DNA of 64,000 nucleotides from a bacterium (GTDB lineage Bacteria; Patescibacteriota; Patescibacteriia; Patescibacteriales; GWE2-39-37), in contig JBAWWA010000005.1 of NCBI GenBank assembly GCA_037146995.1, positions 2,978-66,977 of the forward strand, given 5' to 3'. Position 1 is the stretch's first letter, and each line of letters opens with the position of its first letter. Of this stretch, positions 12,258 to 31,805 are shown piece by piece. The notes under the pieces are model-generated. The model ran no database searches, was not told the DNA's origin, and saw only the letters and a list, made by a program, of their open reading frames with translations. The translations under genes were made by a program, and so were the position numbers.

Positions 12258-12296
12258 CTAATCTTTTTTAAATTGTAGGCAATTTTTATTTGACAT
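12258..12296 (-). pseudogene. Truncated relic of a 14th NCPQLK-family gene
   Basis: ATG TCA AAT AAA AAT TGC CTA CAA TTT AAA AAA GAT TAG encodes MSNKNCLQFKKD*. It lies 7 nt after the stop of the previous array gene, the same spacing and signature as the intact copies. Confidence 0.6.
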
Positions 12297-12303
12297 AAAA
12301 ATT

Positions 12304-13263
12304 TTACTTTGAAAAATCAACAATAAATCTAAACGCACGATCATTAGTGGCATCAAATGAGTCATCAGACTTGAATTGACACGGACTTATGTCACCCAAA
12401 TGATTAAAGTTTGCAATTGACCGTCCTCCTCTCAGCCGATATCCATCCAGCGTTTCATCGGAAAATAATTCCTCACTATCACTAAGTCCCCAATGACTGT
12501 AATGCATGTTGCCTAAAACATTAAATTCAATAGCTCGCAGTAATCTAACCTGTTCAGCTCTTACCTTTAACTTTTCAGCAACAGCTGAGACAAAATCACT
12601 ATTATTAAATACTGCTCCTTCGATATTAAATCTACTGCCAGCATCTTGCTCCTTGCCACTAATTGCTCCGTTAGCTCGATAATACTTAATAATATCAGAC
12701 AAATAGTCATTCTTGAATTCTCCTGCGTGATTATTGTAAGTATCACAACCTGGACGCTCACGCTTATCAACCAGCAACCATGAACCTTTTAAAGTAGCTG
12801 AATCATGCTGAATGTGCGGCCCCTTAGTTTTAAAAATTCCCAGTTTAGCATAATTCATCATTTGGTAGAACTCTTTATATGGTCGAAATTTCCAAGCAGC
12901 AAGCTTCGCCTTCTCCGTCATTTCAATTGACGGTAAATACCGTAACTCCATTTCCATTTTTTCCCAATGCTGGATATTCTCCAATGTAGCCTCAGCAGGT
13001 AATTCTGGCACATCAATATTTTTACCAAAAAATTTACTAAGATCTTTACATTCTCTATTTTTTAGCAATTCAATTTTTAATTCTTTACGTTTTTCAATAA
13101 CACTTACTCTCAATTTAGAAATATTAGCCATGTTTCTATCGAAATTTAAGGCATCATTACTTTGAGCGCTTGACGCAATGTTGACCTGTTTAGCAACAAT
13201 GAAAAATTGCTCTTTTAGAGAGCCAATAAATATTTTATGTTGCTTACAGCTTATATTTATCAT
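12304..13263 (-). CDS. NCPQLK-family protein, subfamily A (divergent N-terminus MINISCKQHK; FGE/CLec-like C-terminal tail)
   Basis: Shares FFGKNIDVPELP, ELRYLP, GSWLLVD, RAIEFNVLGNMHYSHW, YRLRGG and FRFIV with the other A members. Confidence 0.8.
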   Translation of the reverse strand: MINISCKQHKIFIGSLKEQFFIVAKQVNIASSAQSNDALNFDRNMANISKLRVSVIEKRKELKIELLKNRECKDLSKFFGKNIDVPELPAEATLENIQHWEKMEMELRYLPSIEMTEKAKLAAWKFRPYKEFYQMMNYAKLGIFKTKGPHIQHDSATLKGSWLLVDKRERPGCDTYNNHAGEFKNDYLSDIIKYYRANGAISGKEQDAGSRFNIEGAVFNNSDFVSAVAEKLKVRAEQVRLLRAIEFNVLGNMHYSHWGLSDSEELFSDETLDGYRLRGGRSIANFNHLGDISPCQFKSDDSFDATNDRAFRFIVDFSK

Positions 13264-13271
13264 AACAATTA

Positions 13272-14201
13272 CTACTGATTAAGCCTAATCATAACCCTAA
13301 AACCAACGCCAGTCGATCTGTCACTAGCGGAGAATGAATCCACCTGATCAATATCCCGTGTTGCACCGAAAACAAATTTAAATGTTTTTCCGTCTTGACC
13401 ACGATCAGAGCAATGTTCGCTTGAATTTGCCTGACCCAACTGAGGATAATACATATTTGCTAAAACATTAAATTCAATTGCCCTTGGATAATCAATGCAT
13501 TCGGGGCTTACAGCAAATATTGACGCAAATTCTTTTTTAGTTCTTTCGTCTTCAAGCTCGTCTAAAGTTATGCTACACCTTGATTCTTTCTTAATTTTTC
13601 CGGTTTTTGATGACTCGGCTATCGCAGCCTCATCTACAACACCCTTGGATTTAAGTCCAGAAATTATAGCAGCTAGTAGGTCATCTTCATATTCCTGAGT
13701 TTCACCCATACTAATACGCCATGGCTTCTTGATATTTTCAATTAAAAACCAACCTGATTTTAACTGAGTAATATCTTTGGGAAATGTTCCTTTATTTATC
13801 ATGTCCCACATTCCAAATGCCCCACTATGTGGCTTTTTCCTCCAACCCGGATACTTAGCGCTCTTGTTCATGTTTATCTCTGGTAAGTAATGAAGATCTA
13901 GACCGAGCTGCTTCCATTGTTCGAGTTTATCTTGTGTTATTTCTTTAGGTAAAAATGACACCTCAATTTTTTCACCAAAAAATTTTTCCAGGGCCATTGC
14001 CTCTCCTTTTCTAATTTCAAAACCAAATGGCAATAACTCTCGAAGATCAGTAATTAGAAACTCAAGAAACATCATCTTACCGTTTATTTTATCGGCATGA
14101 TCACACGTGCTGGCCGTCTGAATAGATTCATTAATATCATCAATTCTGAACTTTAATTCGTCAAGTTGTTTTTTTAATTGTGGGCAATTTAGATTTCGCA
14201 T
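13272..14201 (-). CDS. NCPQLK-family protein, subfamily A
   Basis: MRNLNCPQLKKQL start, with FFGEKIEV, DLHYLP, SGWFLIE, PRAIEFNVLANMYY and a GFRVMIRL end. Confidence 0.85.
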   Translation of the reverse strand: MRNLNCPQLKKQLDELKFRIDDINESIQTASTCDHADKINGKMMFLEFLITDLRELLPFGFEIRKGEAMALEKFFGEKIEVSFLPKEITQDKLEQWKQLGLDLHYLPEINMNKSAKYPGWRKKPHSGAFGMWDMINKGTFPKDITQLKSGWFLIENIKKPWRISMGETQEYEDDLLAAIISGLKSKGVVDEAAIAESSKTGKIKKESRCSITLDELEDERTKKEFASIFAVSPECIDYPRAIEFNVLANMYYPQLGQANSSEHCSDRGQDGKTFKFVFGATRDIDQVDSFSASDRSTGVGFRVMIRLNQ

Positions 14202-14210
14202 AATTTCAAT

Positions 14211-14885
14211 CTATTTCTCATTTTCTATATCTGGAATTACAAAGATATATTTCTGCTCCCAGTCTTGACTAGGTAGCACAGCTAACGTTTGTCGATAACC
14301 ACCCAGGGAGGAATATCGACGATTTGTTAAACAAAACACATACTTTTGACTACCATAAGCTATTGGCTCCATCGCTACAGCGAACCTTTCACCTTCTGCT
14401 AAATGTAAATCCTCTCGCCCTAAATACAATGCTGTTTCGGTCTGACAAAGATCAAATCCGATATCCATAGCTTTTTTATTAACCTCATTGAGATTACTCA
14501 AGTAATCTACACCAAGCGTTTTATAGTCAATAAATGCTATTCTTATTTTTTTTGGAGTATCTGACAGAATGCAATTTATACTCCTAACTACTCCAATCCT
14601 AGTGCTTTCAGCGGGTCCTATAATTTCAGATTCAAGCTTGTTTTTATCAAGAGTGCCACCAATTAACAACTCCTTGGTCTGTATTTGCTCTTTAATTAAA
14701 AATTTTTCAAGACTAACATGTCGCTTAAATTCAAGAACAATATCAAGCAGCTCCTGTGATAAATCTTCAATCTCAGCGAAGTTTTTTCCAGTATCAATAT
14801 TTGCAATATGCTCACCCATAATTAATACTTGCTCTTTAAGGTATTCTAATTTGTATTTTAGCTGTGGGCAATTATTATTGTTCAT
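14211..14885 (-). CDS. NCPQLK-family protein, subfamily B
   Basis: MNNNNCPQLKYKL start. The C-terminal half (IRIAFIDYKTLGVDY...AMDIGFDLCQTE) is homologous only to the next gene. Confidence 0.85.
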   Translation of the reverse strand: MNNNNCPQLKYKLEYLKEQVLIMGEHIANIDTGKNFAEIEDLSQELLDIVLEFKRHVSLEKFLIKEQIQTKELLIGGTLDKNKLESEIIGPAESTRIGVVRSINCILSDTPKKIRIAFIDYKTLGVDYLSNLNEVNKKAMDIGFDLCQTETALYLGREDLHLAEGERFAVAMEPIAYGSQKYVFCLTNRRYSSLGGYRQTLAVLPSQDWEQKYIFVIPDIENEK

Positions 14886-14887
14886 CT

Positions 14888-15595
14888 TTAAACTTTAAAT
14901 ATATATTCGCCAAAATTTGCCTGAGACTTGTAAGATTTTGCACTAATCAATGGATTAACCTCCTCAACTCTAATAAATATCATATTATTGTCCCTGACAT
15001 CAGTGATTGGATCCACAGGAAAATTATACATACCCTGCTTTGCATTTTTTTGACTAGCGAACTGTTCAATAAAAGATACAATGGACTGTGCCGGACAAAG
15101 TTCGAAGCCCATACTCTGAGCCCTTTTTACCAGCTCTACTGACGTTGCACCGTCTTCCAGACCGATTTCATGTGCATCAACACAAACTAACCTTAATTTA
15201 TTTGGACATGTCTCGCTCAAATCAAATCCTATCTGTTCGCGCGTTTTATGAAAGAGCGCAATATTCAATAGTGTGTCTGCGGCCGTTTTATCCATTTCAA
15301 GACCGAAGTTTTTCAATTTAGCAATAGTGCCCTTGTTGGCCAGACAAGAAGGATCTACATTAACCTCCACTAGACCAAACTTTTTAAATAGCTCGTCCTT
15401 GCGTAGTTGCACAAGATTTATTTTTAACTCACCTACCAAATCCTCTAATTTAGCCAACTTATCAAGCATAAAACCAATTTCGTTAGGTTTACAACTACCA
15501 TCTTTAAGTATTTTAACCTCTGTATTCAGCAAATTTTTCTTTGCGATAATATTTACTAGCTGTTTTTTTAGTTGTGGGCAATTCAAATTAGACAT
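14888..15595 (-). CDS. NCPQLK-family protein, subfamily B
   Basis: MSNLNCPQLKKQL start. C-terminal half is LRLVCVDAHEIGLED...AQSMGFELCPAQ. Confidence 0.85.
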   Translation of the reverse strand: MSNLNCPQLKKQLVNIIAKKNLLNTEVKILKDGSCKPNEIGFMLDKLAKLEDLVGELKINLVQLRKDELFKKFGLVEVNVDPSCLANKGTIAKLKNFGLEMDKTAADTLLNIALFHKTREQIGFDLSETCPNKLRLVCVDAHEIGLEDGATSVELVKRAQSMGFELCPAQSIVSFIEQFASQKNAKQGMYNFPVDPITDVRDNNMIFIRVEEVNPLISAKSYKSQANFGEYIFKV

Positions 15596-15598
15596 AAA

Positions 15599-16513
15599 TT
15601 ATTTATCAATACGAACAACCAGACGAAAACCAATATTCTGACTTCTGTACTCGCTGTTAAAATGTCCAATACCGGAGAAGCCATTTTTTGTAGAGCTGCC
15701 AGAGCAGATCGTTGAGCCCAGACTAGCAAAATCATTGTTTAACCATTCCATAGTGCTGGTCTTGCTCCACTCAGGATGATGTATATTACCTAAAAAGTAA
15801 TACTCTGGTAATCTTGGCAAGCCAACTTGAGTCCACTCTACATTTAACAAGTCAGCAAATGCTTGTTTAACACCAATTTTACTCTCTAGTTCTATTGGCG
15901 TTTGTCCATACCTTGATGACTGACTGATCTGCATTTTTTTGTCAGATGCTTGTTGCTTTGAGGCCTTAACTTTTGGCTCGGCCTCAAGTAACCCCATAGC
16001 CTTTAACTTAACAATTACTGGAGCCAAGCTATCATTATTATACTCAGTAACCGGCTCACTTATTTCCGGCTTTGGGCAAGTATCAACTAATATCCAACAG
16101 CCATTTAGCTCGAATTTTGAAAAAAATCCAAGTGATGCACCAAATTGATATAAACTATTTTTTAAATTATTATCAAAATCTTCAAAGCTCGTCTTAGGCA
16201 AGCAATGAAGTTTAAAACCCAGTCTTTCCCAGTTTCTTATTTTTTCATGAGTAACTGACTTCGGAAATTCTGGCAACTCAACTTCACGTTTGAAAAAACG
16301 GCCTATCTTTTGTCTCTCTCTTTTTTGCAACATCAAACCAACCGGCAGCAGTTCTTCAAGCTTAATCATTAAAGATGAGAGCATGTTTATCATCTTATCT
16401 AAATCAGATAAACCTTGTTTATCAACATCAACAATCATCAACTCTATATCGGCCTGAATTTTATCAATTTCTTGAAGCTGTTTTTTTAGTTGTGGGCAGT
16501 TTATATTTTGCAT
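15599..16513 (-). CDS. NCPQLK-family protein, subfamily A
   Basis: MQNINCPQLKKQL start, with KLHCLP, GCWILVD, LGNIHHPEW and a GFRLVVRIDK end. Confidence 0.85.
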   Translation of the reverse strand: MQNINCPQLKKQLQEIDKIQADIELMIVDVDKQGLSDLDKMINMLSSLMIKLEELLPVGLMLQKRERQKIGRFFKREVELPEFPKSVTHEKIRNWERLGFKLHCLPKTSFEDFDNNLKNSLYQFGASLGFFSKFELNGCWILVDTCPKPEISEPVTEYNNDSLAPVIVKLKAMGLLEAEPKVKASKQQASDKKMQISQSSRYGQTPIELESKIGVKQAFADLLNVEWTQVGLPRLPEYYFLGNIHHPEWSKTSTMEWLNNDFASLGSTICSGSSTKNGFSGIGHFNSEYRSQNIGFRLVVRIDK

Positions 16514-16515
16514 AA

Positions 16516-17400: not shown

Positions 17401-18039
17401 TTATTTAGGCCAGGTTTTTACCCAACTCTTGCCTTGTTCATTAAATCCAAAGATCATCTGGTTCTCCATGTTACCATCCACAAGGACACCACGATTTATC
17501 TCCGTATCTCTTTGCATGCTTGCCTCACCTCTAACATCAATACTCCCAGATTTAAGCATAAATGCATATGACAGACCGTCGGTGACCTCACCGGTATTTT
17601 CGTATTCACTAAAATCTTTTATATCGCCCTCACTAGCCATTAACATTAATAAATTCCCTTGCTGATCAATAATTTCAGACACCAATTTCAACTTGGCAAA
17701 ATCATCACCCAATTCTGCAGTAAACTTCTTAAATAAATCAACAATTTCCTGTCGACTAAAAATAACCTTGCCGAGCATTTGCGAAGTTACGAACTGACTA
17801 ACAAAATGCTCACTTTTTGGCATCAAGTCATCCAAGCCACGCTCTTTTTTAATATTTCGCACAATATCCTTCACACAATAAAGCTGAGCGATCGCAAATC
17901 GCTCTTTTTGTATTCCCTGATCCAAATCATGAATATCAACTGCCTGATCAACATCCTTAATACTCTCGCCAAAATCAACTAAAGCTTGGGCTAGTTTTTG
18001 AAATTCATTTTTTAGTTGTGGGCAGTTTGGATTATTCAT
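17401..18039 (-). CDS. NCPQLK-family protein, unique C-terminal module (212 aa)
   Basis: MNNPNCPQLKNEF start. The remainder is unlike any other copy. Its start (ATGAATAA) overlaps the upstream stop. Confidence 0.8.
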   Translation of the reverse strand: MNNPNCPQLKNEFQKLAQALVDFGESIKDVDQAVDIHDLDQGIQKERFAIAQLYCVKDIVRNIKKERGLDDLMPKSEHFVSQFVTSQMLGKVIFSRQEIVDLFKKFTAELGDDFAKLKLVSEIIDQQGNLLMLMASEGDIKDFSEYENTGEVTDGLSYAFMLKSGSIDVRGEASMQRDTEINRGVLVDGNMENQMIFGFNEQGKSWVKTWPK

Positions 18040-19214: not shown

Positions 19215-20225
19215 TCAACTGCGAGAAAAGACTACTCCAACATTGCGACGTGAATCGCTAAGCCCTCTGCCATAAACACTCGCACCGCCAAGATCAACAT
19301 TACCAACATCGACTATATTACCAACCGAATCACAGCGCATCGTCCATGCCTTAGTATTTTCCAATAATTTTTCATCATTATTCTGTCTATAACTAAAAAT
19401 ATCATATAAAACCTCGGCGGGAGTTTGCCTGGATAACTGATTGATTTTCAATGCCGAGAGCTCACGTGCGTACTTTTTAGAGGTCGGACCACTAATTAAA
19501 TCTTGAATCTCACCATCAGTTTTGCCTTTAAAATTCTTCACAAAGTAATCAACATACTCATCCATGGCTTCGATAAATTTTCTTGGTATAGCAGTGCCGC
19601 CACACTCTGTGTTGAATAAATCATCTACATAATCATAAAGAACTCTCGTTTGCTCGAAATAATTCTTATCCGTTGAGGCTGGAATAATTTCTTTGGAAGT
19701 TAGCGACCATCTGAATTTAATTGGATCGTTTTGCCAAAAATCTTCTAGACTAAACAACTCTTTCAAATCAGCTAATTCCTTGTAGGTAATTTTTCCTTTT
19801 TGACTTTCGTCATAACCACCGTCCAATAAGCTAGCTCGTACTCGCTCCATAGTCAATGGTTGACCTTCACGGTCTATATCAGAACGCAATACCAAGAACT
19901 GACCAAGCTCTTTGGCTTTAATTAATTCCTCTTTTGAGAATTGAATAGCCGGAATATTTTCTTTTGAAATCTCAATGCCAAAAGCTTTTTTGACCTCATC
20001 TGGCCCCAACACCTCCCTGGTACCCATGATTTCTTTGGCACGCTCAATTGATACTGGTGTTTGTTTTTTTAACTCTTTTAATAATACTTCGGCCTGATTC
20101 AAGTTTGCTTGAACATCAAAGATATTTTTTTTGTTAACAACACCAATCTCCATCTTAATTACTGATTGAAGCTTCTTGAGTTCTTTGAGTTGTGATTTTA
20201 GTTGTGGGCAATTCAAATTACTCAT
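19215..20225 (-). CDS. NCPQLK-family protein, unique C-terminal module (336 aa)
   Basis: MSNLNCPQLKSQL start. Its start codon overlaps the stop of the VWA gene (ATGAGTAA). Confidence 0.85.
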   Translation of the reverse strand: MSNLNCPQLKSQLKELKKLQSVIKMEIGVVNKKNIFDVQANLNQAEVLLKELKKQTPVSIERAKEIMGTREVLGPDEVKKAFGIEISKENIPAIQFSKEELIKAKELGQFLVLRSDIDREGQPLTMERVRASLLDGGYDESQKGKITYKELADLKELFSLEDFWQNDPIKFRWSLTSKEIIPASTDKNYFEQTRVLYDYVDDLFNTECGGTAIPRKFIEAMDEYVDYFVKNFKGKTDGEIQDLISGPTSKKYARELSALKINQLSRQTPAEVLYDIFSYRQNNDEKLLENTKAWTMRCDSVGNIVDVGNVDLGGASVYGRGLSDSRRNVGVVFSRS

Positions 20226-23256: not shown

Positions 23257-24714
23257 TTAATCATCATCCCAATCTTCCTCATATTCTGGCTCTAGCTTTT
23301 TTGGTGTAAATATTGTTTCACCTTTTTTGTTTATGTAAAAACTTTCATCACTTTCATCTTTGCGCACTTGCCATAAACCATCTTTATAGCCATAAAATTG
23401 AGCAATATCTCTAATAATTTCTTTACCTTCCATAGTATAACCATCATAGACCACGTCATTTCCCATTATTCTGCTGGATGTAAAAGTTATGCCATTACAG
23501 ACATCACTTGGATCATATTCTGATTCGAAATTCGTAAAATATTTATTTAGCTGTCCTTGCTTGTCAATAAAACTCCAAGTCAAGAATTCTTCATTGCCAG
23601 GATATTCATTTTTCACCTTTGCATACCCTTCTTTAAACGAATGTACCTCAAATTGCCACACTTCAAGCAAAATAACCCCATTAGTATCTATGAAATTATA
23701 TCTTAAATATTCCTCAGATTCGTCTGGTAAGTTATTCCCATGCTCATCTTCATATTCTTGAGTGAATCTTGTGCTCACTACTGCATAACCTTCAGAAAAA
23801 GATTTTACAGACTCATAGCCCTCAAAGCATACTTCGCCTTTGAGATCCAAAAAATACTCATTACCCTCAAGGTCCTTAACTCTTGTGTAACCATTACTAT
23901 ATCCGTCAACCTCTTGATACTCACCTTCATGAAAAACTTTTCTTGTCGCCACGTCATAAAATACAAACTCATCACCTTGCTTTCCGGTAATAACACCTTC
24001 AGAATACTGTGAATAGTTAAGACTTGGCAAATCACAAATCTGAGTGTAACTCTGATCTAATATCAAATCACCGCTAACGCCACCATGAATAATAACCACC
24101 CCGTCATTACTTTTGTCAACACCAAAACCACTACGAACCTCGCGGAATATCTTCGACTCCTCTTCTAGCTTGTTTCCCTTTTTATCAATAAAATAATAAG
24201 GTGATGAATCGATACTTTTTTTTACGATTGCCCGACCATTAGCAAACTGACTAGCATATACAAATTCTCCATCACTAAAACCTCCGTAACCACAAATATA
24301 GCCATCTTTATTAAGGTATACATGTTTATTTTTTATCTTCACCACCGCCATGCCATCAGAAAAGTGTGAAACCAAACAAGCACCTTTTGAAAATCTATTC
24401 TTTACTCCACCCTCTTGATCAACAATAAACAGTTCCTCATCCTTCTCACCAAAAGCGCGACCTTCGGAAAATTTACTTAAAAAATTAAAACCATGGATTT
24501 TGGCGATCCTGTCACGAAATTTGATTTGATTTGGATCACTTTTTTCCGATAGTGCGCAGAATAATTCAGACACTGAGGCAAAACTTGCTTCAATGTCTTT
24601 AAAGTCAGTTGACTTGCCAGCCTGCAAAAAGCCTTGAAACTCAAGCTCAAAATCCTCAAGGTTTTTCTTAAGTTTTTGAAGATCTAATTTTATCACTGAA
24701 CAATCGGTCTGCAT
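23257..24714 (-). CDS. WG-repeat protein with a degenerate NCPQLK-type N-terminus (MQTDCSVIKLDLQKLKKNL)
   Basis: The preferred start is the ATG at 24712-24714, 1 nt after the upstream stop. Repeats include FSDGMAVVKIKNKHVYLNKDGY, FSEGYAVVS and FKEGYAKVKNE...WSFIDKQGQ. Confidence 0.8.
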   Translation of the reverse strand: MQTDCSVIKLDLQKLKKNLEDFELEFQGFLQAGKSTDFKDIEASFASVSELFCALSEKSDPNQIKFRDRIAKIHGFNFLSKFSEGRAFGEKDEELFIVDQEGGVKNRFSKGACLVSHFSDGMAVVKIKNKHVYLNKDGYICGYGGFSDGEFVYASQFANGRAIVKKSIDSSPYYFIDKKGNKLEEESKIFREVRSGFGVDKSNDGVVIIHGGVSGDLILDQSYTQICDLPSLNYSQYSEGVITGKQGDEFVFYDVATRKVFHEGEYQEVDGYSNGYTRVKDLEGNEYFLDLKGEVCFEGYESVKSFSEGYAVVSTRFTQEYEDEHGNNLPDESEEYLRYNFIDTNGVILLEVWQFEVHSFKEGYAKVKNEYPGNEEFLTWSFIDKQGQLNKYFTNFESEYDPSDVCNGITFTSSRIMGNDVVYDGYTMEGKEIIRDIAQFYGYKDGLWQVRKDESDESFYINKKGETIFTPKKLEPEYEEDWDDD

Positions 24715-24715: not shown

Positions 24716-24916
24716 CTAAGCAGCAACCTCGGCCGTATCTGGGCAAAGCTCGGCAATTTCCTCCTCAAGTGACTTAATCTCCTCCTGCAAGCCCTTAAAC
24801 TTTTCTACTAACTCCTTCTTTTGCATTTCAAACTTTTTTTGTTCTAGTGCCTCAGTGCTTTGTGTAAATGTTTCTTTTGCAGCAGATTCAAATCCGCCCA
24901 TGCCTGGATTTTTCAT
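24716..24916 (-). CDS. 66-aa coiled-coil protein ending in ...EIAELCPDTAEVAA
   Basis: Heptad-like E/K-rich sequence. It sits 4 nt after the AAA gene stop and 1 nt before the next start. Confidence 0.6.
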   Translation of the reverse strand: MKNPGMGGFESAAKETFTQSTEALEQKKFEMQKKELVEKFKGLQEEIKSLEEEIAELCPDTAEVAA

Positions 24917-24920: not shown

Positions 24921-27900
24921 TTATTTATTAGATAATTTATTAATTAAATTTTGTGCTCTTTGTTCTGGTGTCATATTCGCAGCTTCTGCTAATTCTTCGT
25001 CACTAAGCATACTTCTTTTGTGCAAATACCCTTCAAGGAAGGCGAAGAACTCTTCATAGGTTTCAAGCTTCGCACCCTTCTCTGCTTCATCAAATTTGAC
25101 CTCATACTCCTTAATCTTATCTATGACCATATCGAGCTCCTTAATACTGTCATATTCCAACCCAACCATAAGCTCCATTATCTTCTTGACCTGCTTAACC
25201 ATCTCAAGTCCGCGAATTTCTGCCTCCGTGTCATCTTCACCTTCACGCATCTTGCCAGCTATCTTCTCATATTCCTCTTTTTTGCGCATCGGTAAATAGC
25301 CAAAGACTAACTGGGTCATTTCGAGCGAAGAAAAATATGACAACTCATATTGCCCCTGTGTATTGAGCATACTGACATAGTCGCCATTCTGGGCAATACG
25401 TTTATATTTCCCATCGACTTCACCAGCAACACCTTCATATTTGCCCAAATCTCGCAATGGATCAAAATTCATCATTTGCTTAAAATCAGTAACCGCCTGA
25501 CTCTGATTTGAATCAACTCTCATATAATCAGGCCAACCACCGTCGGCACTAAAAAATCCTGCTTTATTTAAAGTCGCATAAATCACAGCCTGAGCCTGGG
25601 GGTGCTGGTCATATTTCTTCACATAATTCCACAGATAATATTCGATATCCATAGATCCACCCTGGTCAACATAAGCCCCCAAAATCTGATCCATCAATTC
25701 ACGCATGGTTAGATTAGCACTACTCAAAGAACTAGCGATAAGGGCTGGTGTCACGTCTGCACCAAGAATTGGCTTCAAGTTATCAAGTCTCAAGCCACTA
25801 TTTCCAGCCTTGCCCTCAAAAACATCCATTATCAAACGAGCACCAACACTTAGGCGATACATGTCCTTGAAAAATGAATAACGATCATCTTTTTTGACCA
25901 AGACCCTGGCACCCAAGCGCTGATTCATCATCTTCATGAGTAACACCTCAAATATCTGATCATTTTTAGCCAGCGACTTTGAATCATCAATAATTTTCTG
26001 TAGCTCCTCATCATCTTTAAACTCGTCAGTAATATGACCCAAGTTCAAACGCTCAATATCAGTTTTAGCCTCATTAAGTTGATTGCTTTGTGGCAAATAA
26101 TTAACTTGCACCGGAATAATACGACTGTAAGTAGCTGGATCAGTGTCATTATGGCGCGCTTTGGTATAGCGGTCACCAGTGTTACCAGTCCAAATTACAC
26201 AATAGCCGGGCTTAATTTGGAATTCACCAATCGAAGCCTGAGTTTTTTGTGTCTCGCCAATCTTCTTGGTTAAGAGATCGTTAAAAGCAATTAAAACTTC
26301 TGGGGGGATGGCGTTTGCCTCGTCAATAATAAGCGGTACGCCCTGGCGCATGGCTTCATACATTGCACCTAATACAAATCTACCTTGTACTGGATTACCA
26401 TAGACACTAGCGAGTTGGCCATTAACCAACTCTTCTGTCTCACCTCTTAATTTTTTCTCATTTTTCTTAAAATACGCTTCAAAACCACTCTCAGTATCAT
26501 CTTGATCTTCGGACAATGAATTATGATATTCCTGACGAGCCACCTGCATAAATACCGCCTCACGCTGCTCTTTTTCTGATCCTACCATGGCAGCAATTGT
26601 CTTGGTCAAAGACTCATTACTGCTTAAGTCCACGTCTTCGCCAAATTTCTTGGCAATAATTTTGAAATGCTCTTCTGGTGTCAAATTCTCAATCTTGAAA
26701 GTTTCAGTAAAGCGGTCCGGCTCTAAATATTTACTACCAGAAACAATAATCGGATCTTTTGATTTGCCGTTTTCATCTTTACCTGTCAGATAATTTCGAG
26801 CAATGTGAGTCGCCAAGGCAGTCTTGCCCGTACCATGGTCACCATGTAAATAAACGATAGTTGGTGACTTGCCCTCTTGCACTTTAAGCACTGGCAAAAT
26901 CTTTTCGATAATACTTTTGATGTATGGCGTCTCAACAATTTTACCATTGTGTAGCATCTGCCAAAGATTACCCAATTCACGCTTGTAGTTTACGTAGGCC
27001 GGCAAAAACTCCTTTGCCACAATATTTCCAGACTTTTCATATTCAGTCTCCATGCCAACATTCAAATTCAAACCTAAATTCTTTTTGGCTAATCGAGAAA
27101 AGCGCTCATTTAGTTTACCAATTCTTTCCTGCTTCAACCTAGGTCGCATTGCACCAAGCTCCTCAGAGCTTCTAAGCATATCGACATTTCGACTAGACTT
27201 GCTTGCCGCCAAGGTAGATTTATTTTGCCTAAGTTTTCGTATCGTATCTCGAACATCTGGATACTGGGCTTGAGCATATTTTTCAATCGATTTCATTTCG
27301 TCATCAGAATATGCACCAAGCTCTTGATCTAATTCAAAATATTCTTCCAGGTTTAAAAAAGCTCGATGAGATTTACCAGCAGCTCGATTTTCTGCTTCGC
27401 GATAAGCATTACTACTAGTATTCTCTTGATCATGTTCAGATAAACTTGCCAACTCTTTGTTCTCAATTGACTGCATTATAAAGTCATAAAAATCATCACC
27501 ATCTTCTGTTTCGGCTATTTTTAACAAGTCCTTAAAGACTTCAACATTTACATTATTCGTTTTATTCTCATCACTTTTTTCGACCAAGGCAATTTTAGCT
27601 GCTGTTAATGTTTTATGAATAATTTCTGGCGACATTTCTCTCGACTCAAGTTCTTTAGCCAAACCATCAATTTTTTTGAAATCTTTTGCATGAGCTAATA
27701 TCTCTTCCACATCTTCACGATGCACACCATCGAACAATGATTGCAAGGTTTCACTCGATAAATCTTTTACGGTAATATTCTCAACCATTTCATCCATCAA
27801 GGCACGTGATTCTTCGAGTTTAGCCATGTAGCCAAAGGCTAAATCCTCAGCTTCAAACGTATTCTCTAATTTAGTATCTTTTGCCGCCTCGGTCGAACGT

Positions 27901-27929
27901 GCGACTGGCGGTCGATTTTCCTTAAACAT
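24921..27929 (-). CDS. Large (1002 aa) AAA+ ATPase, MoxR / AAA_5 (CbbQ/NorQ/GvpN-like) core with long helical extensions
   Basis: Walker A is LHGDHGTGKTALA. Walker B plus the downstream helix is PLIIDEANAIPPEVLIAFNDLL, typical of the MoxR/AAA_5 clade. It lies adjacent to a VWA gene. Confidence 0.8.
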   Translation of the reverse strand: MFKENRPPVARSTEAAKDTKLENTFEAEDLAFGYMAKLEESRALMDEMVENITVKDLSSETLQSLFDGVHREDVEEILAHAKDFKKIDGLAKELESREMSPEIIHKTLTAAKIALVEKSDENKTNNVNVEVFKDLLKIAETEDGDDFYDFIMQSIENKELASLSEHDQENTSSNAYREAENRAAGKSHRAFLNLEEYFELDQELGAYSDDEMKSIEKYAQAQYPDVRDTIRKLRQNKSTLAASKSSRNVDMLRSSEELGAMRPRLKQERIGKLNERFSRLAKKNLGLNLNVGMETEYEKSGNIVAKEFLPAYVNYKRELGNLWQMLHNGKIVETPYIKSIIEKILPVLKVQEGKSPTIVYLHGDHGTGKTALATHIARNYLTGKDENGKSKDPIIVSGSKYLEPDRFTETFKIENLTPEEHFKIIAKKFGEDVDLSSNESLTKTIAAMVGSEKEQREAVFMQVARQEYHNSLSEDQDDTESGFEAYFKKNEKKLRGETEELVNGQLASVYGNPVQGRFVLGAMYEAMRQGVPLIIDEANAIPPEVLIAFNDLLTKKIGETQKTQASIGEFQIKPGYCVIWTGNTGDRYTKARHNDTDPATYSRIIPVQVNYLPQSNQLNEAKTDIERLNLGHITDEFKDDEELQKIIDDSKSLAKNDQIFEVLLMKMMNQRLGARVLVKKDDRYSFFKDMYRLSVGARLIMDVFEGKAGNSGLRLDNLKPILGADVTPALIASSLSSANLTMRELMDQILGAYVDQGGSMDIEYYLWNYVKKYDQHPQAQAVIYATLNKAGFFSADGGWPDYMRVDSNQSQAVTDFKQMMNFDPLRDLGKYEGVAGEVDGKYKRIAQNGDYVSMLNTQGQYELSYFSSLEMTQLVFGYLPMRKKEEYEKIAGKMREGEDDTEAEIRGLEMVKQVKKIMELMVGLEYDSIKELDMVIDKIKEYEVKFDEAEKGAKLETYEEFFAFLEGYLHKRSMLSDEELAEAANMTPEQRAQNLINKLSNK

Positions 27930-27950: not shown

Positions 27951-28955
27951 TTAAAAACGTGTTTTATATGTTACTCCATACAAATTTTTATATTGACCTT
28001 CATCTATCTCCTCTGCTAACGTCTTGTCTATTACCACGAGATTATCATGAAACAAGGCAAAATCTCTATGGATATCTAACATCTCAGCTAAGTTGTTATC
28101 AATAACGAGTTCTGGCTGCTTGAAGGCACGGATCTCAAGGTAATAATCTTTATGCTTAATCAAGTCACAAAGCATTTCGCGGGTCATTGGATCGTTGGTT
28201 TCTATTACTAGTTTGCCCTTAAACTTTACTAATTCCTTACATATCTCTGGCGTTATGTTGCAATTAAGCGAAATTGCCTCATTGTGCTGCATTAATAATT
28301 TAGCAGCCTCAACGTCTGCCACCCCGCCAAACCGCAGATCTCCTTTAACATCTTCCAATGCCGATAAAGCTTCCTTGGAATAAGTTTTAAAATCGCCTAA
28401 GTATATTTTTCCGTCATGTCCATCAAGTTTCTGCAATGACTCAACGCTTATTTTGTCAAAAGTTTGCAAATTAAGTGTACCTACATGTTCGCTCAAGCCC
28501 TCGGCTGCCCCTGGCGTTAACTCTTCTAACGCCTCAAAAGTCAAATTACCTTCATGCTTCCCAAGCTGTTCTGCCACTTCTGGCGTCAAGTGCGACAATC
28601 GTCGGAGATAGATTTCATTACTCTTTCTTTTGCCCTTCAATAAATTAATATTTCCCATCGGCCCTTGAGTTAACGGGGTACTCCTGGCCGCAACCTTTTC
28701 ATGTCGTTCAACCAAAAATTCAGCAACCTCAGCATTCAACTCAGTTATTTCTTCGCACTTATCCAGCTTACCATTCACAATCTCTTGCCATAACTTCATA
28801 TTACGAAGTTCTTCTATCTGGTCATGCAAATAGATAAACAAATCCTTAGCATCGGTGAATTCGTCCCTTGATTTAATATCACACAACAAATCACCCAAAA
28901 CTTTTTCGGTATTTCTAAGTGCTGGTAATTTTAACTTAAGACTAGGGCAATACAT
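27951..28955 (-). CDS. NCPQLK-family protein (MYCPSLKLKL start) with LRR-like repeats of about 24 aa
   Basis: Repeats include LTPEVAEQLGKHEGNLTFEALEELTPGAAEGLSEHVGTLNLQTFDKISVESLQKLDGHDGKIYL. Confidence 0.8.
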   Translation of the reverse strand: MYCPSLKLKLPALRNTEKVLGDLLCDIKSRDEFTDAKDLFIYLHDQIEELRNMKLWQEIVNGKLDKCEEITELNAEVAEFLVERHEKVAARSTPLTQGPMGNINLLKGKRKSNEIYLRRLSHLTPEVAEQLGKHEGNLTFEALEELTPGAAEGLSEHVGTLNLQTFDKISVESLQKLDGHDGKIYLGDFKTYSKEALSALEDVKGDLRFGGVADVEAAKLLMQHNEAISLNCNITPEICKELVKFKGKLVIETNDPMTREMLCDLIKHKDYYLEIRAFKQPELVIDNNLAEMLDIHRDFALFHDNLVVIDKTLAEEIDEGQYKNLYGVTYKTRF

Positions 28956-28974
28956 GGGGTTTGATATTTACTTT

Positions 28975-29027: not shown

Positions 29028-29051
29028 GTGGATATTATAGCAGGTTTTATA

Positions 29052-29927
29052 TTAAAAACGAACCATAGGGCGGAAACCCATCGTGTTATCACGACGACTT
29101 TCTGGATAATAGTTAACATGCGAAAGACCGCCGTCAACAGAAATACCACCATAAAGCCGGTAACCTCCATCATATATGTCACTAAACCATTCGTAATTTG
29201 TGGTCGTGCCCCATTCCTGGTGATGTATATTACCCAGAACATTGAAATCAATCGCACGAGGTAACGTCATCTTATCTGCTTGAACTTTTAATACACTGGC
29301 TAATGTCTCTCGAACTTCTATTTTTTCTAATTCTTTAGCAATAATGCCGAATCTTGAATCCTTTTTCTCAAAATCATCTATTACTCCATCTTGACGTAAA
29401 AGCGCTAACGATTCAGCAAGAATATCATTCTCATACTGCATTTTTTGGCTTGGTTTTTGTCGACCATCAATCAATACCCAACCAGACTTTAATTCGTCTG
29501 AAGTAATAGAAATCTTTCCATCAAGCATACAGTCATAAAACCATTTTTTTGGCCTTTCCCTCCATCCGGGGTAATCTTTATCTTGGCTCATTTCTATTTC
29601 AGGCAAATAATGCAATTCAAAGCCTTGCTCTTTCCATTTCTCCGCCTGTTTAACTGTAATTTCTTCTGGTAATTTAGGCACCTCAATCGGCATACCAAAA
29701 AAGGCTTCGAGTTTTTGCTTCTCTGATTTTATCAATTCACGAAAGTGTAGTTTTTCGTTTATCTCATTGATTAGCTCCAAGGCGTCATTAAAAATAGCAT
29801 AAACCTCGGAAACTTTAGACTCCTTGAAATTTGTTAAGTTCAATTCTTCTAGCTCAACAGCAATCGTATTTTCTTTGGCTTTGAGGAGAAAGAGTTGTTT
29901 TTTTAATTGTGGGCAGTTAAATGTCAT
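29052..29927 (-). CDS. NCPQLK-family protein, subfamily A
   Basis: MTFNCPQLKKQL start, with FFGMPIEVPKLP, ELHYLP, SGWVLIDGRQKP, PRAIDFNVLGNIHHQEW, YRLYGG and a GFRPMVRF end. Confidence 0.85.
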   Translation of the reverse strand: MTFNCPQLKKQLFLLKAKENTIAVELEELNLTNFKESKVSEVYAIFNDALELINEINEKLHFRELIKSEKQKLEAFFGMPIEVPKLPEEITVKQAEKWKEQGFELHYLPEIEMSQDKDYPGWRERPKKWFYDCMLDGKISITSDELKSGWVLIDGRQKPSQKMQYENDILAESLALLRQDGVIDDFEKKDSRFGIIAKELEKIEVRETLASVLKVQADKMTLPRAIDFNVLGNIHHQEWGTTTNYEWFSDIYDGGYRLYGGISVDGGLSHVNYYPESRRDNTMGFRPMVRF

Positions 29928-29938
29928 AATTCAATACA

Positions 29939-30829
29939 TTAAAATCTAACCATAAGGCGAAAACCTAGCATCTTATCTCGAAAATTTGAATCAACAACTC
30001 GAATATCAGAAAGACCACCTGCATCGCTATTTCCACCGCAAAGATGCCGATCATCATCAATCAAACTATCACTAAACCATTCGCGATTCTCTGTATTATC
30101 CCAATCTTGATAATGTAAGTTGCCTAAAATATTAAAATCAATGGCCCTTGGCAATGAGACGTTATCAGGTGACACGGCCAAAACCTCCGCCAGTAATGTC
30201 ATAACTTCAACTTGTTTTAATTCATCAAAACTAATATCATACCTACTTCCAGTGTTTTTTGTTTTAATTTGCCCTGACTTCTCCAACTTAGCCAACGCAT
30301 CTTTAAAACAATCATTCTCATATGAATGGGCATTAAAATTCTGCCCATACGGCTTTTGCCGACCATCAATTAATACCCACCCGGATTTTACTTCATCTGA
30401 ATCAATTGAAAGGCTCCCAAAATTAACAGAATCGTAAAACAAATTATTAGGCTTCTTGGTCCAACCGGGAAACTCCCTGTCATTTGACATTTTAACATTT
30501 GGCAAATAATGCAATTCGAATTGTTGCTTCTGCCAAGCTTCTACCATATCCTTGGTTATTTCAGCTGGTGGGTTTGGCACATCAATCGAAAAACCAAAAA
30601 ATTCATCAAGTTTAGCTTTTTCAGTTTCAATTAAATCCCTAAATGGCATTAGCTCTTTAATTTTATTAATCAAATTACTAGTCTCTTGAAAAGTGTCATA
30701 AACCTTATCAACGTTCGATCGTTCGAAGTTAGTCAAACTCAACTCATCAAGTTCTACAGCAATCATATCTTGCTTAGCGAGTAACTGATGAAGTAATATT
30801 TTAATTTGTGGGCAATTCTTATTTCGCAT
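29939..30829 (-). CDS. NCPQLK-family protein, subfamily A
   Basis: MRNKNCPQIKILL start, with FFGFSIDVPNPP, ELHYLP, SGWVLIDGRQKP, PRAIDFNILGNLHYQDW and a GFRLMVRF end. Confidence 0.85.
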   Translation of the reverse strand: MRNKNCPQIKILLHQLLAKQDMIAVELDELSLTNFERSNVDKVYDTFQETSNLINKIKELMPFRDLIETEKAKLDEFFGFSIDVPNPPAEITKDMVEAWQKQQFELHYLPNVKMSNDREFPGWTKKPNNLFYDSVNFGSLSIDSDEVKSGWVLIDGRQKPYGQNFNAHSYENDCFKDALAKLEKSGQIKTKNTGSRYDISFDELKQVEVMTLLAEVLAVSPDNVSLPRAIDFNILGNLHYQDWDNTENREWFSDSLIDDDRHLCGGNSDAGGLSDIRVVDSNFRDKMLGFRLMVRF

Positions 30830-30842
30830 TTACTTATTTAAA

Positions 30843-31733
30843 CTAAAAGTGAATAAAAAGACGAAAGCCCAAATTGTCACGTTCCTCATTGCAGGCCATA
30901 TTTTTAATATCAGAAAACTTACAATTTCCATAGTTATCACCACTAACCAAATAGTCATTATTCCCAAGTTTATCATTAAACCATTCAAAATTGTAGGATT
31001 TCTCCCACTCCTTATGGTGCATTTGCCCTATTACATTATACTCGATTGCCCTTGGTAGTTCTATTTGACGTAAAGATACCCCTAAAACCTCACTAAAACC
31101 CTGCTTGGCTTCTCCGGTATTCAAGCGCAGTGGATTTGTTCTAAATCTAGTAGTGGCTGTTTGCGAATTATTCCTAATTATACCTTCTTGTCTCATTTCT
31201 GCAATTTTTTCGCCTAAGGCATCATTTATGTATACATCACCTCTGCTATCTGGCTTCTGTGTTGCGTCAACAAGAATCCAACCAGCTTTCAACTGATCTG
31301 CGCTAGCATCAATTTTACCGTTTTTAATATATTTATAGAATGAATCATTGGGCTTTTTCTTCCAGCCAGGAAATACATCTTTTTCGCCCATTTTGATATC
31401 TGGCAAATAATGAAGCTCAAAATTTTGCTCTTGCCACATGGCCATTTTCTCATAGGTCACCTCTGACGGCAAACTAGGCACCTCAATTGTCATGCCAAAA
31501 AACGCCTCGAGCTTTTGCTTTTCTGATTTAATCAATTCATTGAAAGGCAACTTTTCCTTCAATTTTAATACTAAATCACTAGTCTGCTCTAGCATCTTAT
31601 AAACTTCGTCAGCTTTTGCTTGTTTATAGCCACCAGCCAACTGCAGTTCTTCAATTTCTACCTTTAAGGTATTCTGCTTGGCCAAAATAATATGCAACCT
31701 TGATTTTAATTGTAAGCAGAGTTTACTTGCCAT
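30843..31733 (-). CDS. NCPQLK-family protein, subfamily A (degenerate MASKLCLQLK start)
   Basis: The ATG at 31731-31733 places Cys at position 6, as in the other copies. Also has FFGMTIEVPSLP, ELHYLP, AGWILVD, PRAIEYNVIGQMHHKEW and a GFRLFIHF end. Confidence 0.8.
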   Translation of the reverse strand: MASKLCLQLKSRLHIILAKQNTLKVEIEELQLAGGYKQAKADEVYKMLEQTSDLVLKLKEKLPFNELIKSEKQKLEAFFGMTIEVPSLPSEVTYEKMAMWQEQNFELHYLPDIKMGEKDVFPGWKKKPNDSFYKYIKNGKIDASADQLKAGWILVDATQKPDSRGDVYINDALGEKIAEMRQEGIIRNNSQTATTRFRTNPLRLNTGEAKQGFSEVLGVSLRQIELPRAIEYNVIGQMHHKEWEKSYNFEWFNDKLGNNDYLVSGDNYGNCKFSDIKNMACNEERDNLGFRLFIHF

Positions 31734-31805
31734 AAATAATAACATGAATGAATTTTATAAGTTTGGCAGGTAACCAAAAATTTTGCCAACTTTTTTGCCA
31801 AACCA

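What the first reader, a model, noticed from the sequence alone, without database searches (positions are those of the whole stretch)
12258..31745. 19.5-kb phage-borne array: 13 (+1 relic) proteins share an 'NCPQLK' N-terminal module but carry at least six unrelated C-terminal modules
SEEN: sixteen consecutive minus-strand genes are packed with gaps of -8 to +21 nt, with one 96-nt exception. Thirteen of them start with the same signature at the same offset from Met1. Clear examples are MSNLNCPQLKKQL, MQNINCPQLKKQL, MRNLNCPQLKKQL, MNNNNCPQLKYKL, MNNPNCPQLKNEF, MSNLNCPQLKSQL, MTFNCPQLKKQL and MRNKNCPQIKIL. Weaker versions are MSNINCPSLKNNL, MNNLYCPQLRMSL, MYCPSLKLKL, MASKLCLQLK, MINISCKQHK and MQTDCSVIKLDL. 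The signature is followed by about 50-70 aa of heptad-like helix and an (F/K)FG turn. After that the proteins diverge into discrete classes. Seven carry a module with ELHYLP, GW-x-L-(I/V)-(D/E), PRAIEFNVLGNMHHPEW and a GFR tail. Two have WG beta-repeats, one has LRR-like repeats, two form a private pair (14211/14888), and two are singletons (17401, 19215). INFERENCE: one constant N-terminal module fused to interchangeable binding-type C-termini is the logic of adaptor-based systems. Precedents are the effector-associated domains proposed for vWA-MoxR conflict systems, the N-terminal anchors of multi-receptor-binding-protein phages, and polymorphic toxin trafficking domains. I do not recognise the N-terminal module as any named family. 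Cys-Pro is also the core of heme-regulatory motifs and could be a redox or ligand site, which is speculative.
Basis: partly seen in the sequence, partly recalled or inferred. Interest (0 to 1): 0.92.

Follow-up and report, generated by a model that had tools for sequence, protein, structure and literature searches.

The report
Phage-borne binding-protein repertoire with shared adaptor
A prophage of a tiny-genome (Patescibacteria/CPR) bacterium carries 14 tandem genes for soluble binding-type proteins that share a rare N-terminal cysteine-plus-helical-hairpin module, wrapped around an ATPase/vWA/metallopeptidase core; in related genomes the same module heads a protein that a diversity-generating retroelement hypermutates, so this array looks like a hard-wired version of a mutable sensor repertoire.

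Summary
There are 17 tightly packed minus-strand genes, and 14 intact ones plus a 12-codon relic share an N-terminal module. The array sits inside a ~47-kb prophage bounded by 23-bp att repeats.

The module is a ~75-residue helical hairpin preceded by one invariant Cys. It matches no Pfam, PHROG, NCBIfam or PADLOC family and is extremely rare: 18 hits among 1.84 billion representative proteins, 12 of them from this window.

The seven 'ELHYLP...GFR' proteins have the FGE-sulfatase/C-type-lectin fold, which is the scaffold of DGR variable proteins. Two others carry WG beta-repeats.

The core has three parts: a ~1000-aa AAA_5 (MoxR/CobS-like) ATPase, a 66-aa coiled-coil protein, and a ~1000-aa protein with an N-terminal zincin-like HExxH domain and a C-terminal vWA/MIDAS domain.

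In 7-8 of 9 related metagenomic systems, N-module genes flank the same core. In three systems a DGR is adjacent, and full-length DGR targets begin with the N-module. The core family is confined to Patescibacteriota.

Best reading: a new variant of MoxR-vWA conflict/sensor systems, in which a paralogue array replaces DGR hypermutation. The physical coupling of the module to the core is inferred, not shown, and one complete genome has N-module genes without any vWA.

The parts
12260..12298 (-). Relic: 12-codon remnant of an N-module gene (MSNKNCLQFKKD*) at the integrase-proximal end of the array
12304..13263 (-). N-module (degenerate motif MINISCKQHK) + class-A FGE-sulfatase/C-lectin-fold C-module, 319 aa
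13272..14201 (-). N-module + class-A C-module, 309 aa
14211..14885 (-). N-module + short C-module of unknown fold, weakly paired with 14888
14888..15595 (-). N-module + short C-module of unknown fold, weakly paired with 14211
15599..16513 (-). N-module + class-A C-module, 304 aa
16516..17391 (-). N-module + class-A C-module, 291 aa. This is the modelled copy: helical hairpin at residues 7-75, FGE-sulfatase/C-lectin fold at residues ~86-290
17401..18039 (-). N-module + 130-aa C-module of unknown fold; its C-module is weakly similar (26% identity over 65 aa, E 2e-4) to the N-module gene next to the vWA gene in L022/L027
18032..19198 (-). N-module + WG beta-repeat C-module, 388 aa
   Evidence: PF14903, E 9e-30
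19215..20225 (-). N-module + '19215-type' C-module of unknown fold; homologues are P0021 and the gene upstream of the AAA gene in L029
20218..23244 (-). Core protein, 1008 aa. Zincin-like HExxH domain (~35-195; H102, E103, H106 and E128 invariant), Pro/acidic linker, small beta domain (assigned by eye only), charged coiled region, and C-terminal vWA domain with MIDAS residues (D784, S786, S788, T890, D926)
23257..24714 (-). N-module (weak motif MQTDCSVIK) + WG beta-repeats. It sits between the AAA/66-aa genes and the vWA gene, so it is a candidate third core component
24716..24916 (-). 66-aa coiled-coil protein. A small ORF follows the AAA gene in L017/18, L025 and L029 too; BLAST supports homology for the first two, and L029 is positional only
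24921..27929 (-). Core AAA_5 (MoxR/CobS-like) ATPase, 1002 aa. Walker A at 363-370 and Walker B at 534-537 are invariant; long N- and C-terminal extensions
27951..28955 (-). N-module (MYCPSLK) + Leu-rich periodic C-module; the LRR assignment is not confirmed
29052..29927 (-). N-module + class-A C-module, 291 aa
29939..30829 (-). N-module + class-A C-module, 296 aa
30843..31745 (-). N-module + class-A C-module; the likely start is the ATG at 31733. The last 39 residues of its orthologue are 92% identical in L030, where the following genes differ
31806..33209 (-). AAA_14/DUF4143 ATPase (PADLOC candidate PDC-S01) directly upstream of the array. It recurs next to N-module genes in L031 and L032, so it may be an accessory component or just an island neighbour
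9316..9338 (.). att-like 23-bp repeat, integrase side; the second copy is at 56740-56762, overlapping the 3' end of gene 56739-57983
9464..10372 (-). Tyrosine integrase of the prophage

Best explanation
The array is an unusually expanded form of a rare system that is so far confined to Patescibacteria and belongs to the MoxR-vWA 'conflict/sensor' kind.

Constant core: a large AAA_5 ATPase, a small coiled-coil protein, and a protein that joins a zincin-like HExxH domain to a C-terminal vWA/MIDAS domain.

Variable part: soluble cytoplasmic proteins built from (i) a ~75-residue N-terminal module, made of one invariant Cys 3-9 residues after Met1 followed by a two-helix hairpin, and (ii) a ligand-binding-type C-terminal domain. 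The C-terminal domains seen are the FGE-sulfatase/C-lectin fold, WG beta-repeats, a GXGXG beta-helix in a relative, and several unassigned modules.

Proposed mechanism (inferred, not shown):
1. The C-domains recognise diverse ligands, most plausibly proteins of invading phages or other competitors.
2. The common N-module couples every recogniser to the same core, either directly or through the N-module/WG protein encoded between the ATPase and vWA genes.
3. The vWA/MoxR pair remodels the complex in an ATP-dependent way.
4. The HExxH domain is the likely executor.

Relatives obtain recognition diversity by DGR hypermutation of one N-module protein. This prophage has no RT and instead carries 14 diverged paralogues, so its repertoire is germline-encoded. 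Its position in the accessory region between the lysis genes and the integrase suggests a benefit to the lysogen, such as exclusion of other phages.
For: Shown:
- 14 genes plus a relic share the module, with no other copy in the genome.
- The module is a helical hairpin in a confident model (pLDDT 84).
- The class-A C-module matches FGE-sulfatase-fold proteins, including the DGR variable protein TvpA, at Z 8.1-9.2 over 147-164 residues; all top Foldseek rows are of the same fold.
- WG repeats are present.
- AAA_5 scores above its Pfam cut-off, with invariant Walker motifs.
- The MIDAS motif is invariant, and the C-terminus aligns to a Pfam-annotated VWA region (hhalign probability 81%, E 1e-5).
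- The HExxH domain's best structural matches are minigluzincins and other zincins (Z 5-6.8, covering 100 of 104 residues of jannalysin). H/E/H are kept in 9 of 9 carriers read.
- N-module genes lie beside vWA/AAA homologues in 7-8 of 9 related systems.
- L017/L018 hold an active DGR: every TR/VR mismatch falls on a TR adenine, and the TR is identical while the VR differs between two samples.
- RT or Avd genes are adjacent in three of these systems, and also in L033.
- Full-length DGR targets begin with the N-module (HMM E 2e-14).
- The core family occurs in ~12 of 36,145 genera, all Patescibacteriota.
- No TM segment or signal peptide is present.
- A close relative of the array (L030) has different gene content next to a gene whose surviving 39-residue end is 92% identical to that of 30843.

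Precedent: FGS/CLec domains and DGRs recur in MoxR-vWA systems, and CLec proteins have been proposed as their sensors (PMC7159879; PMC10907252).
Against: - No physical or co-evolutionary evidence shows that the N-module contacts the core.
- No copy of the module is detectable in the vWA, AAA or 66-aa proteins.
- N-module genes can occur without the core. G308, a 99%-complete closed genome, has two tandem copies but no vWA domain, no A4-type protein and no RT. L032 has none within 11.6 kb.
- The loci retrieved through the vWA protein are biased towards showing the association.
- A defence role is inferred only from context: prophage accessory region, TA pairs, RmuC, and a DUF4143/PDC-S01 neighbour.
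- Variability among class-A paralogues is spread along the protein and is not focused on the VR-equivalent segment.
- Five C-module types in the window remain unassigned: 14211, 14888, 17401, 19215 and 27951. Any of them could be enzymatic.
Confidence: 0.5

Rival explanations
1. Clients of a chaperone. The N-module proteins are substrates that the MoxR-vWA pair matures or assembles (for example metal or cofactor loading, with the N-terminal Cys as ligand). This would resemble CoxD/E, NorQ/D or CbbQ/O, with no immune or sensing role.
For: The synteny is the same as for the best explanation. From established knowledge, MoxR-vWA pairs are maturation and remodelling chaperones. The invariant Cys could be a metal ligand.
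Against: Fourteen diverged paralogues with different folds, DGR hypermutation of the homologous protein in relatives and fast turnover between close relatives point to recognition diversity rather than a housekeeping client. The location in a prophage accessory region also points that way.
Confidence: 0.15
2. Autonomous oligomerisation module. The Cys + hairpin merely multimerises binding domains, as the Cys-containing N-segment and coiled-coil neck do in collectins. Proximity to vWA/AAA would then reflect co-residence in variable islands rather than function.
For: G308 has N-module genes in a genome with no vWA. L032 has no core within 11.6 kb. Hairpin and coiled-coil modules are generic oligomerisers, and all N-module structural matches are generic helical hairpins.
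Against: N-module genes are immediately adjacent to the vWA or AAA gene in 7-8 of 9 systems, which are only 37-45% identical in the vWA protein and come from different samples. The small coiled-coil gene is also conserved there. Such tight packing (gaps of a few nt) suggests co-transcription.
Confidence: 0.17
3. Alternative receptor-binding proteins of the phage. The N-module anchors interchangeable tips on the tail, as in multi-RBP phages, and class A is an Mtd-like C-lectin tip.
For: The locus is in a prophage. Mtd, the Bordetella phage receptor-binding protein, shares the class-A fold (rank 44).
Against: - The array lies beyond the lysis genes, in the accessory region and outside the virion module.
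- No PHROG hit for eight representative N-module proteins.
- No relatives in 2.9 M viral contigs or 50,697 phage records.
- Relatives sit among cellular genes such as a tRNA synthetase, ribosomal proteins and RmuC.
- An ATPase/vWA/peptidase core is not tail-fibre machinery.
Confidence: 0.08
4. DNA-level feature. The conserved 5' ends are recombination or translation signals, and the shared peptide is a by-product.
For: The motif's codons are more uniform than genome usage predicts: TGC in 10 of 14 against 38% expected, CTA in 6 of 11 against 11% expected. The motif is the top DNA repeat family in the region. There is no Shine-Dalgarno upstream.
Against: With a control, same-codon sharing is only mildly raised (0.63 against 0.46 expected, compared with 0.42 against 0.39 elsewhere). 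The module is conserved as protein over ~75 residues in loci with unrelated DNA. The Cys is invariant in 33 of 33 copies.
Confidence: 0.05

Closest known systems
DGR-diversified C-lectin (FGS) 'sensors' beside MoxR ATPases and vWA proteins (VMAP/iSTAND ternary conflict systems; Kaur et al. 2020, PMC7159879; Dore et al. 2024, PMC10907252)
   Same: AAA_5/MoxR-type ATPase plus a vWA protein plus FGE-sulfatase/C-lectin-fold proteins. DGR linkage is present in relatives. Some published targets have an uncharacterised N-terminal extension in place of a vWA domain. A peptidase is part of the system.
   Different: - No VMAP, iSTAND, FtsH or beta-propeller third component was detected.
- The vWA domain is C-terminal, behind a zincin-like HExxH domain, rather than N-terminal before effectors.
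- The lectin-fold domain sits on separate small proteins.
- Diversity here comes from 14 paralogues, not a DGR.
- The host is a unicellular tiny-genome lineage and a prophage, not multicellular bacteria.
Effector-associated domains (EADs) of Kaur et al. 2020
   Same: A small non-enzymatic terminal domain repeated on several proteins encoded next to a MoxR-vWA core, with different partner domains.
   Different: No copy was found on the vWA or AAA core proteins. The partners are binding scaffolds rather than enzymatic effectors, so the logic is many recognisers to one engine, not one sensor to many effectors. There is no sequence match to any Pfam family.
DGR variable proteins Mtd (Bordetella phage BPP-1) and TvpA (Treponema denticola)
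   Same: The class-A C-module shares their FGE-sulfatase/C-lectin fold (TvpA: Z 8.6 over 160 residues). It ends in the same G-F-R strand that closes the variable region.
   Different: There is no TR/VR pair or RT in this genome. The N-terminal part differs: a helical hairpin instead of Mtd's beta-prism. The proteins are not in the virion module.
MoxR/CobS-vWA/CobT chaperone pairs (RavA-ViaA, CbbQ-CbbO, NorQ-NorD, BchI-BchD; phage CobS/CobT-like genes)
   Same: An AAA_5 ATPase is paired with a MIDAS-bearing vWA protein that has a Pro/acidic linker. The ATPase matches phrog_249, the 'porphyrin biosynthesis' CobS-like group.
   Different: Both proteins are ~1000 aa with large extra domains, including a zincin-like domain. 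They are tied to a family of variable binding proteins, not to one enzyme client.
Collectins (analogy from general knowledge, not tested)
   Same: The domain order is the same: N-terminal Cys segment, helical coiled neck, C-type-lectin-fold head.
   Different: Collectins are unrelated in sequence, eukaryotic and secreted, whereas these proteins are cytoplasmic with no collagen region. The resemblance is purely architectural.

Membership tests
Effector-associated domain (EAD) systems | [quoted passage not shown] | tested here: not met
   HMM and hhalign of the N-module against the vWA, AAA and 66-aa proteins find nothing. The only candidate is the N-module/WG protein encoded between the AAA and vWA genes, and its status as a core component is unproven.
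Effector-associated domain (EAD) systems | Further copies are fused to effector or signalling domains, usually enzymatic, in adjacent genes | tested here: inconclusive
   The copies are in adjacent genes. The identified partners, however, are binding scaffolds: FGE/C-lectin fold, WG repeats and GXGXG. The class-A module lacks any conserved Cys of the FGE catalytic pair. Five module types are unassigned.
Effector-associated domain (EAD) systems | Sequence membership in a described EAD family | tested here: not met
   No Pfam family hits the N-module region of any N-module protein at E <= 0.01. That Pfam holds the EAD models is from memory.
MoxR-vWA ternary conflict systems | MoxR-clade AAA+ ATPase | tested here: inconclusive
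   AAA_5 scores 32.7 bits against a cut-off of 22. Walker A and B are invariant. There is a weak GvpN-family hit and a phrog_249 hit. Clade placement within AAA_5 was not resolved, and there is no PDB sequence match.
MoxR-vWA ternary conflict systems | vWA domain protein with MIDAS | tested here: met
   DxSxS...T...D is invariant in four homologues. hhalign to a Pfam-VWA-annotated protein gives probability 81%, E 1e-5, with motifs in register. Atlas neighbours are VWA/CobT_C. Pfam itself does not reach significance.
MoxR-vWA ternary conflict systems | Defining third component (VMAP, iSTAND, FtsH or vWA-fused beta-propeller) | tested here: not met
   No such domain was found by Pfam, NCBIfam or PADLOC in the array genes searched. 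N-module proteins occupy that place.
DGR variable protein | C-type-lectin/FGE-sulfatase fold carrying the variable region | tested here: met
   Class-A model: CarF, PvdO, TvpA, pFGE and EgtB at Z 7.9-9.0 over 147-164 residues (PorK, Z 9.2, tops the list); Foldseek's top rows are all of this fold.
DGR variable protein | Cognate TR/VR pair with adenine-specific mismatches and an RT | tested here: not met
   No RVT_1 in the 95%-complete genome and no TR/VR-like repeat in the region. The feature is met in relatives L017/L018.
Formylglycine-generating enzyme | Catalytic Cys pair / copper site | tested here: not met
   No Cys is conserved in the class-A C-module; the invariant residues are W, L, P, D, R, V, E, F and R.
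Phage tail-fibre / receptor-binding protein anchor | Homology to virion proteins and a position in the tail module | tested here: not met
   No PHROG hit. The array lies between the lysis genes and the integrase. No relatives among viral contigs or phage records.
Zincin metallopeptidase (N-domain of the vWA protein) | HExxH plus a third ligand on a zincin fold | tested here: inconclusive
   H102, E103, H106 and E128 are invariant in 9 homologues. The top structural matches are minigluzincins at Z 5.5-6.8, followed by other zincins. There is a weak proabylysin sequence hit at E 0.59. The Z values are below the tool's confidence zone, and Foldseek gives nothing significant.

The most novel reading that the evidence does not exclude
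A temperate phage of a CPR bacterium carries a germline-encoded repertoire of at least 14 intracellular recognition proteins of several folds. All of them plug, through one Cys-bearing helical adaptor, into a single ATPase/vWA/zincin engine. Related cells obtain the same diversity by DGR hypermutation of one adaptor-bearing protein. On this reading, paralogue arrays and targeted hypermutation are interchangeable ways of building a prokaryotic receptor repertoire, and the N-module is a previously undescribed adaptor that defines the system.
Probability: 0.3. Interest if true: 0.85.

Novelty: new variant of a known kind. Interest (0 to 1): 0.7.

Why it matters
Targets of DGRs in CPR bacteria are almost wholly uncharacterised (PMC5758913). 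The function of MoxR-vWA 'ternary' systems also rests on genomic inference only.

This locus ties the two together with one recognisable adaptor module. It also offers a natural experiment: the same system appears with a DGR, with one or a few recogniser genes, and with 14. That makes testable the idea that C-lectin and other binding domains are the sensors and the ATPase/vWA/peptidase is the engine.

It is also a well-bounded prophage of a Patescibacteria host that devotes ~41% of its length to an accessory system, which is unusual for such small genomes.

Tried and rejected
- **Complex prediction.** HExxH domain + N-module + Zn gave no verdict (score 0.00, controls not run). It is not evidence either way.
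- **Word-indexed homology search** with a class-A protein returned only the query itself.
- **Viral-contig scans** with the ATPase, the vWA alignment and a degenerate DNA motif for M.N.NCPQLK found no relatives. The N-module alignment was too divergent for that tool.
- **The same DNA motif in 596 Gb of genomes** gave 4 hits. About 4 are expected by chance, and none has the module behind the motif.
- **hhalign comparisons** were all insignificant: class A against the DGR-target fragment, class A against the 19215 type, and the DGR-target family against class A or the 19215 type. The C-modules therefore stay separate classes by sequence.
- **PDB sequence searches** for the 19215, 27951, vWA and AAA proteins and for the DGR-target family gave nothing significant.
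- **Foldseek on the HExxH-domain model** gave nothing significant.
- **Neighbour count in the genus census** was uninformative, because an 80-residue module cannot reach the 40-bit threshold.
- **Sequencing runs.** Only the probable source sample (a lake-water metagenome) holds the DNA, and no RNA holder is listed. Expression could not be examined, and read laying was not used.
- **DGR in the window** was considered and rejected: no RT and no TR/VR pair.
- **Surface adhesin** was considered and rejected: no TM segment or signal peptide.
- **VR-like focused variability** in class A was considered and not found.

Full report
**Observation.** Between 12304 and 31745 there are 17 minus-strand ORFs. 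They are separated by -8 to +21 nt, with one 96-nt gap. Fourteen of them begin with the same module, and an alignment of their first 80 residues has Met1 and one Cys invariant. A 12-codon remnant, MSNKNCLQFKKD*, lies at 12298->12260. An HMM of the 14 copies scores them at E 1e-17 to 1e-27 and finds nothing else in the 1.2-Mb, 95%-complete genome.

The paralogues are old, at 26-50% identity. Codons in the motif are more uniform than genome usage predicts. A control shows only a mild excess of same-codon pairs: 0.63 against 0.46 expected, compared with 0.42 against 0.39 in the rest of the protein. Conservation is therefore mainly at the protein level.

**Setting.** The window holds a prophage.
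- A tyrosine integrase is at 9464-10372.
- An amidase is at 34178-34633.
- Tape-measure, minor-tail, major-head, portal and terminase genes lie at 38-52 kb.
- A 23-bp exact direct repeat at 9316-9338 and 56740-56762 has its second copy over the 3' end of a flanking gene.

The element is ~47.4 kb, and the array fills about 41% of it, in the accessory region between lysis and integrase. All 400 sampled genomes of the same phylum are 0.5-1.2 Mb. The core protein family occurs only in Patescibacteriota. The only public run holding the DNA is a lake-water metagenome.

**The variable proteins.**
- *Class A.* A model of one class-A protein (pLDDT 84, pTM 0.79) shows a two-helix hairpin at residues 7-75 and a globular domain at 86-290. 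The globular domain matches PorK, CarF, PvdO, TvpA, pFGE, EgtB and SenA at Z 7.8-9.2 over 147-164 residues. Foldseek's leading rows are all of the same fold and include Mtd. This is the FGE-sulfatase/C-type-lectin fold, the usual scaffold of DGR variable proteins. No Cys is conserved in it, so it is not a formylglycine-generating enzyme.
- *WG proteins.* Two proteins carry WG beta-repeats.
- *Other modules.* The 'LRR-like' label for 27951 is not confirmed. The modules of 14211, 14888, 17401 and 19215 remain unassigned.
- *Localisation.* None of the proteins has a TM segment or signal peptide.
- *The hairpin.* It has only generic helical matches.

**The core.**
- *ATPase (24921-27929).* It has an AAA_5 domain above the Pfam cut-off and invariant Walker A and B motifs. 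It matches the CobS-like phage family phrog_249.
- *Small protein (24716-24916).* It encodes a 66-aa coiled-coil protein.
- *vWA protein (20218-23244).* Across four homologues it has an invariant HEFAH and, near the C-terminus, invariant DxSxS, T and D residues in MIDAS order. Its last ~240 residues align, with motifs in register, to a region that Pfam annotates as VWA in a Candidatus Wolfebacteria protein (hhalign probability 81%, E 1e-5).
- *HExxH domain.* A model of residues 1-455 (pLDDT 82) has minigluzincins as best structural matches: jannalysin at Z 6.8 covering 100 of 104 residues, selecase and abylysin. BepA, Ste24, SprT, BlaR1 and Wss1 follow. The Z values are modest and Foldseek is silent. 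I therefore treat the zincin assignment as likely, not proven.

**Relatives.** The N-module is extremely rare. In 1.84 billion representative proteins only 18 score E <= 0.001, and 12 of them are the window's own. The outside hits carry class-A, WG, 19215-type and new C-modules.

Searching through the vWA protein gave nine independent systems, 37-45% identical. Their gene maps show the following.
- N-module genes lie directly beside the vWA or AAA gene in seven systems.
- An eighth system has a 19215-type gene whose start is cut off by the contig end.
- One system has five tandem N-module paralogues with a GXGXG beta-helix.
- A small ORF follows the AAA gene in all four systems where the sequence downstream of it is available; BLAST supports its homology to the 66-aa protein in two of the three relatives.

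Three systems have DGR parts next to the core. In L017/L018 the TR is identical in two samples, while the VR differs and every mismatch falls on a TR adenine. This is an active DGR. Full-length versions of its target begin with the N-module (MPNLDCQKLKQDL...; HMM E 2e-14). A Wolfebacteria contig shows the order N-module target, Avd, RT, VWA protein.

Across 33 modules from about a dozen loci, the Cys is the only invariant residue.

A close relative of the array itself (L030) keeps a gene whose last 39 residues, all that the contig holds, are 92% identical to those of 30843. It follows that gene with a WG-type gene that the window lacks at that position, and then with a class-A gene only 42% identical to its nearest window copy. 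Array content therefore turns over quickly.

**Limits.**
- The association is asymmetric. G308, a closed 99%-complete genome of the same class, has two tandem N-module genes but no vWA domain, no A4-type protein and no RT. L032 has no core within 11.6 kb.
- No copy of the module is detectable in the core proteins.
- Variability among class-A paralogues is not focused on the VR-equivalent segment.
- Coupling of the N-module to the core is therefore an inference from synteny.

**Interpretation.** The closest described systems are the MoxR-vWA ternary conflict systems. In them FGS/C-lectin domains and DGRs recur, and the lectin proteins have been proposed as sensors (PMC7159879; PMC10907252).

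This locus differs from them in several ways:
- it lacks the defining third components;
- its vWA domain lies behind a zincin-like domain;
- its binding domains sit on separate proteins that share a new adaptor-like module;
- it replaces hypermutation with a 14-gene array;
- it is carried by a prophage of a tiny-genome bacterium.

It does not satisfy the formal EAD pattern. The logic is many recognisers to one engine.

I rate it a new variant of a known kind. The adaptor family has no match in the protein-family libraries searched, nor a description in the papers read, and the link from CPR DGR targets to an ATPase/vWA/peptidase core appears to be new (PMC5758913, states that such targets are uncharacterised).

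Noticed in passing
window 9023-9106 (-), upstream of ORF 1124-9073 (-): A c-di-GMP-II riboswitch (RF01786, 61.9 bits against a gathering score of 53.5) sits directly upstream of a 2649-aa ORF, just outside the prophage att site. The giant gene was not characterised.
   Followed up: no
window 9316-9338 and 56740-56762: A 23-bp exact direct repeat (TACATCATTTTTTTCCGAATAAA) bounds a ~47.4-kb prophage. The far copy overlaps the 3' end of gene 56739-57983, as expected for integration into a gene end.
   Followed up: partly
window 31806-33209 (-); L031 1-732; L032 778-1998: An AAA_14/DUF4143 ATPase (PADLOC candidate PDC-S01) lies just upstream of N-module genes in three separate loci. It could be a further component or just an island neighbour.
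   Followed up: partly
window 12304-31745, upstream of each start codon: None of the array genes has a recognisable Shine-Dalgarno. The starts are preceded by AT-rich sequence, often ...AATT ATG, and followed by an A-rich coding start.
   Followed up: no
L030 1-1874: A very close relative of the array from another sample has different gene content after a gene whose last 39 residues are 92% identical to those of 30843. This indicates rapid gain, loss or replacement of array members.
   Followed up: partly
L025 257-3398; L033 1912-2942: The vWA homologue in L025 is split into two ORFs, and the DGR RT in the Wolfebacteria contig L033 is split into two overlapping ORFs. These may be decaying copies, or frameshifts from assembly errors.
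   Followed up: no
L019 2913-3778; L032 4419-5362: Nucleotidyltransferase/HEPN (HepT-like) toxin-antitoxin pairs are inserted within or beside N-module gene clusters in two related loci. RmuC precedes the N-module gene in L020 and L026.
   Followed up: no
window 52415-53653 (-): A ParB-like nuclease domain is fused to a DNA methyltransferase (phrog_498, E 8.5e-130) in the prophage, next to the terminase region.
   Followed up: no
G308:C1:1-2580 (L042): In the one other genome of the phylum sample with clear N-module genes, the two tandem copies lie at the very start of the circular record, downstream of a 496-aa ORF that was not characterised. The rest of the locus, across the record junction, was not examined.
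   Followed up: partly
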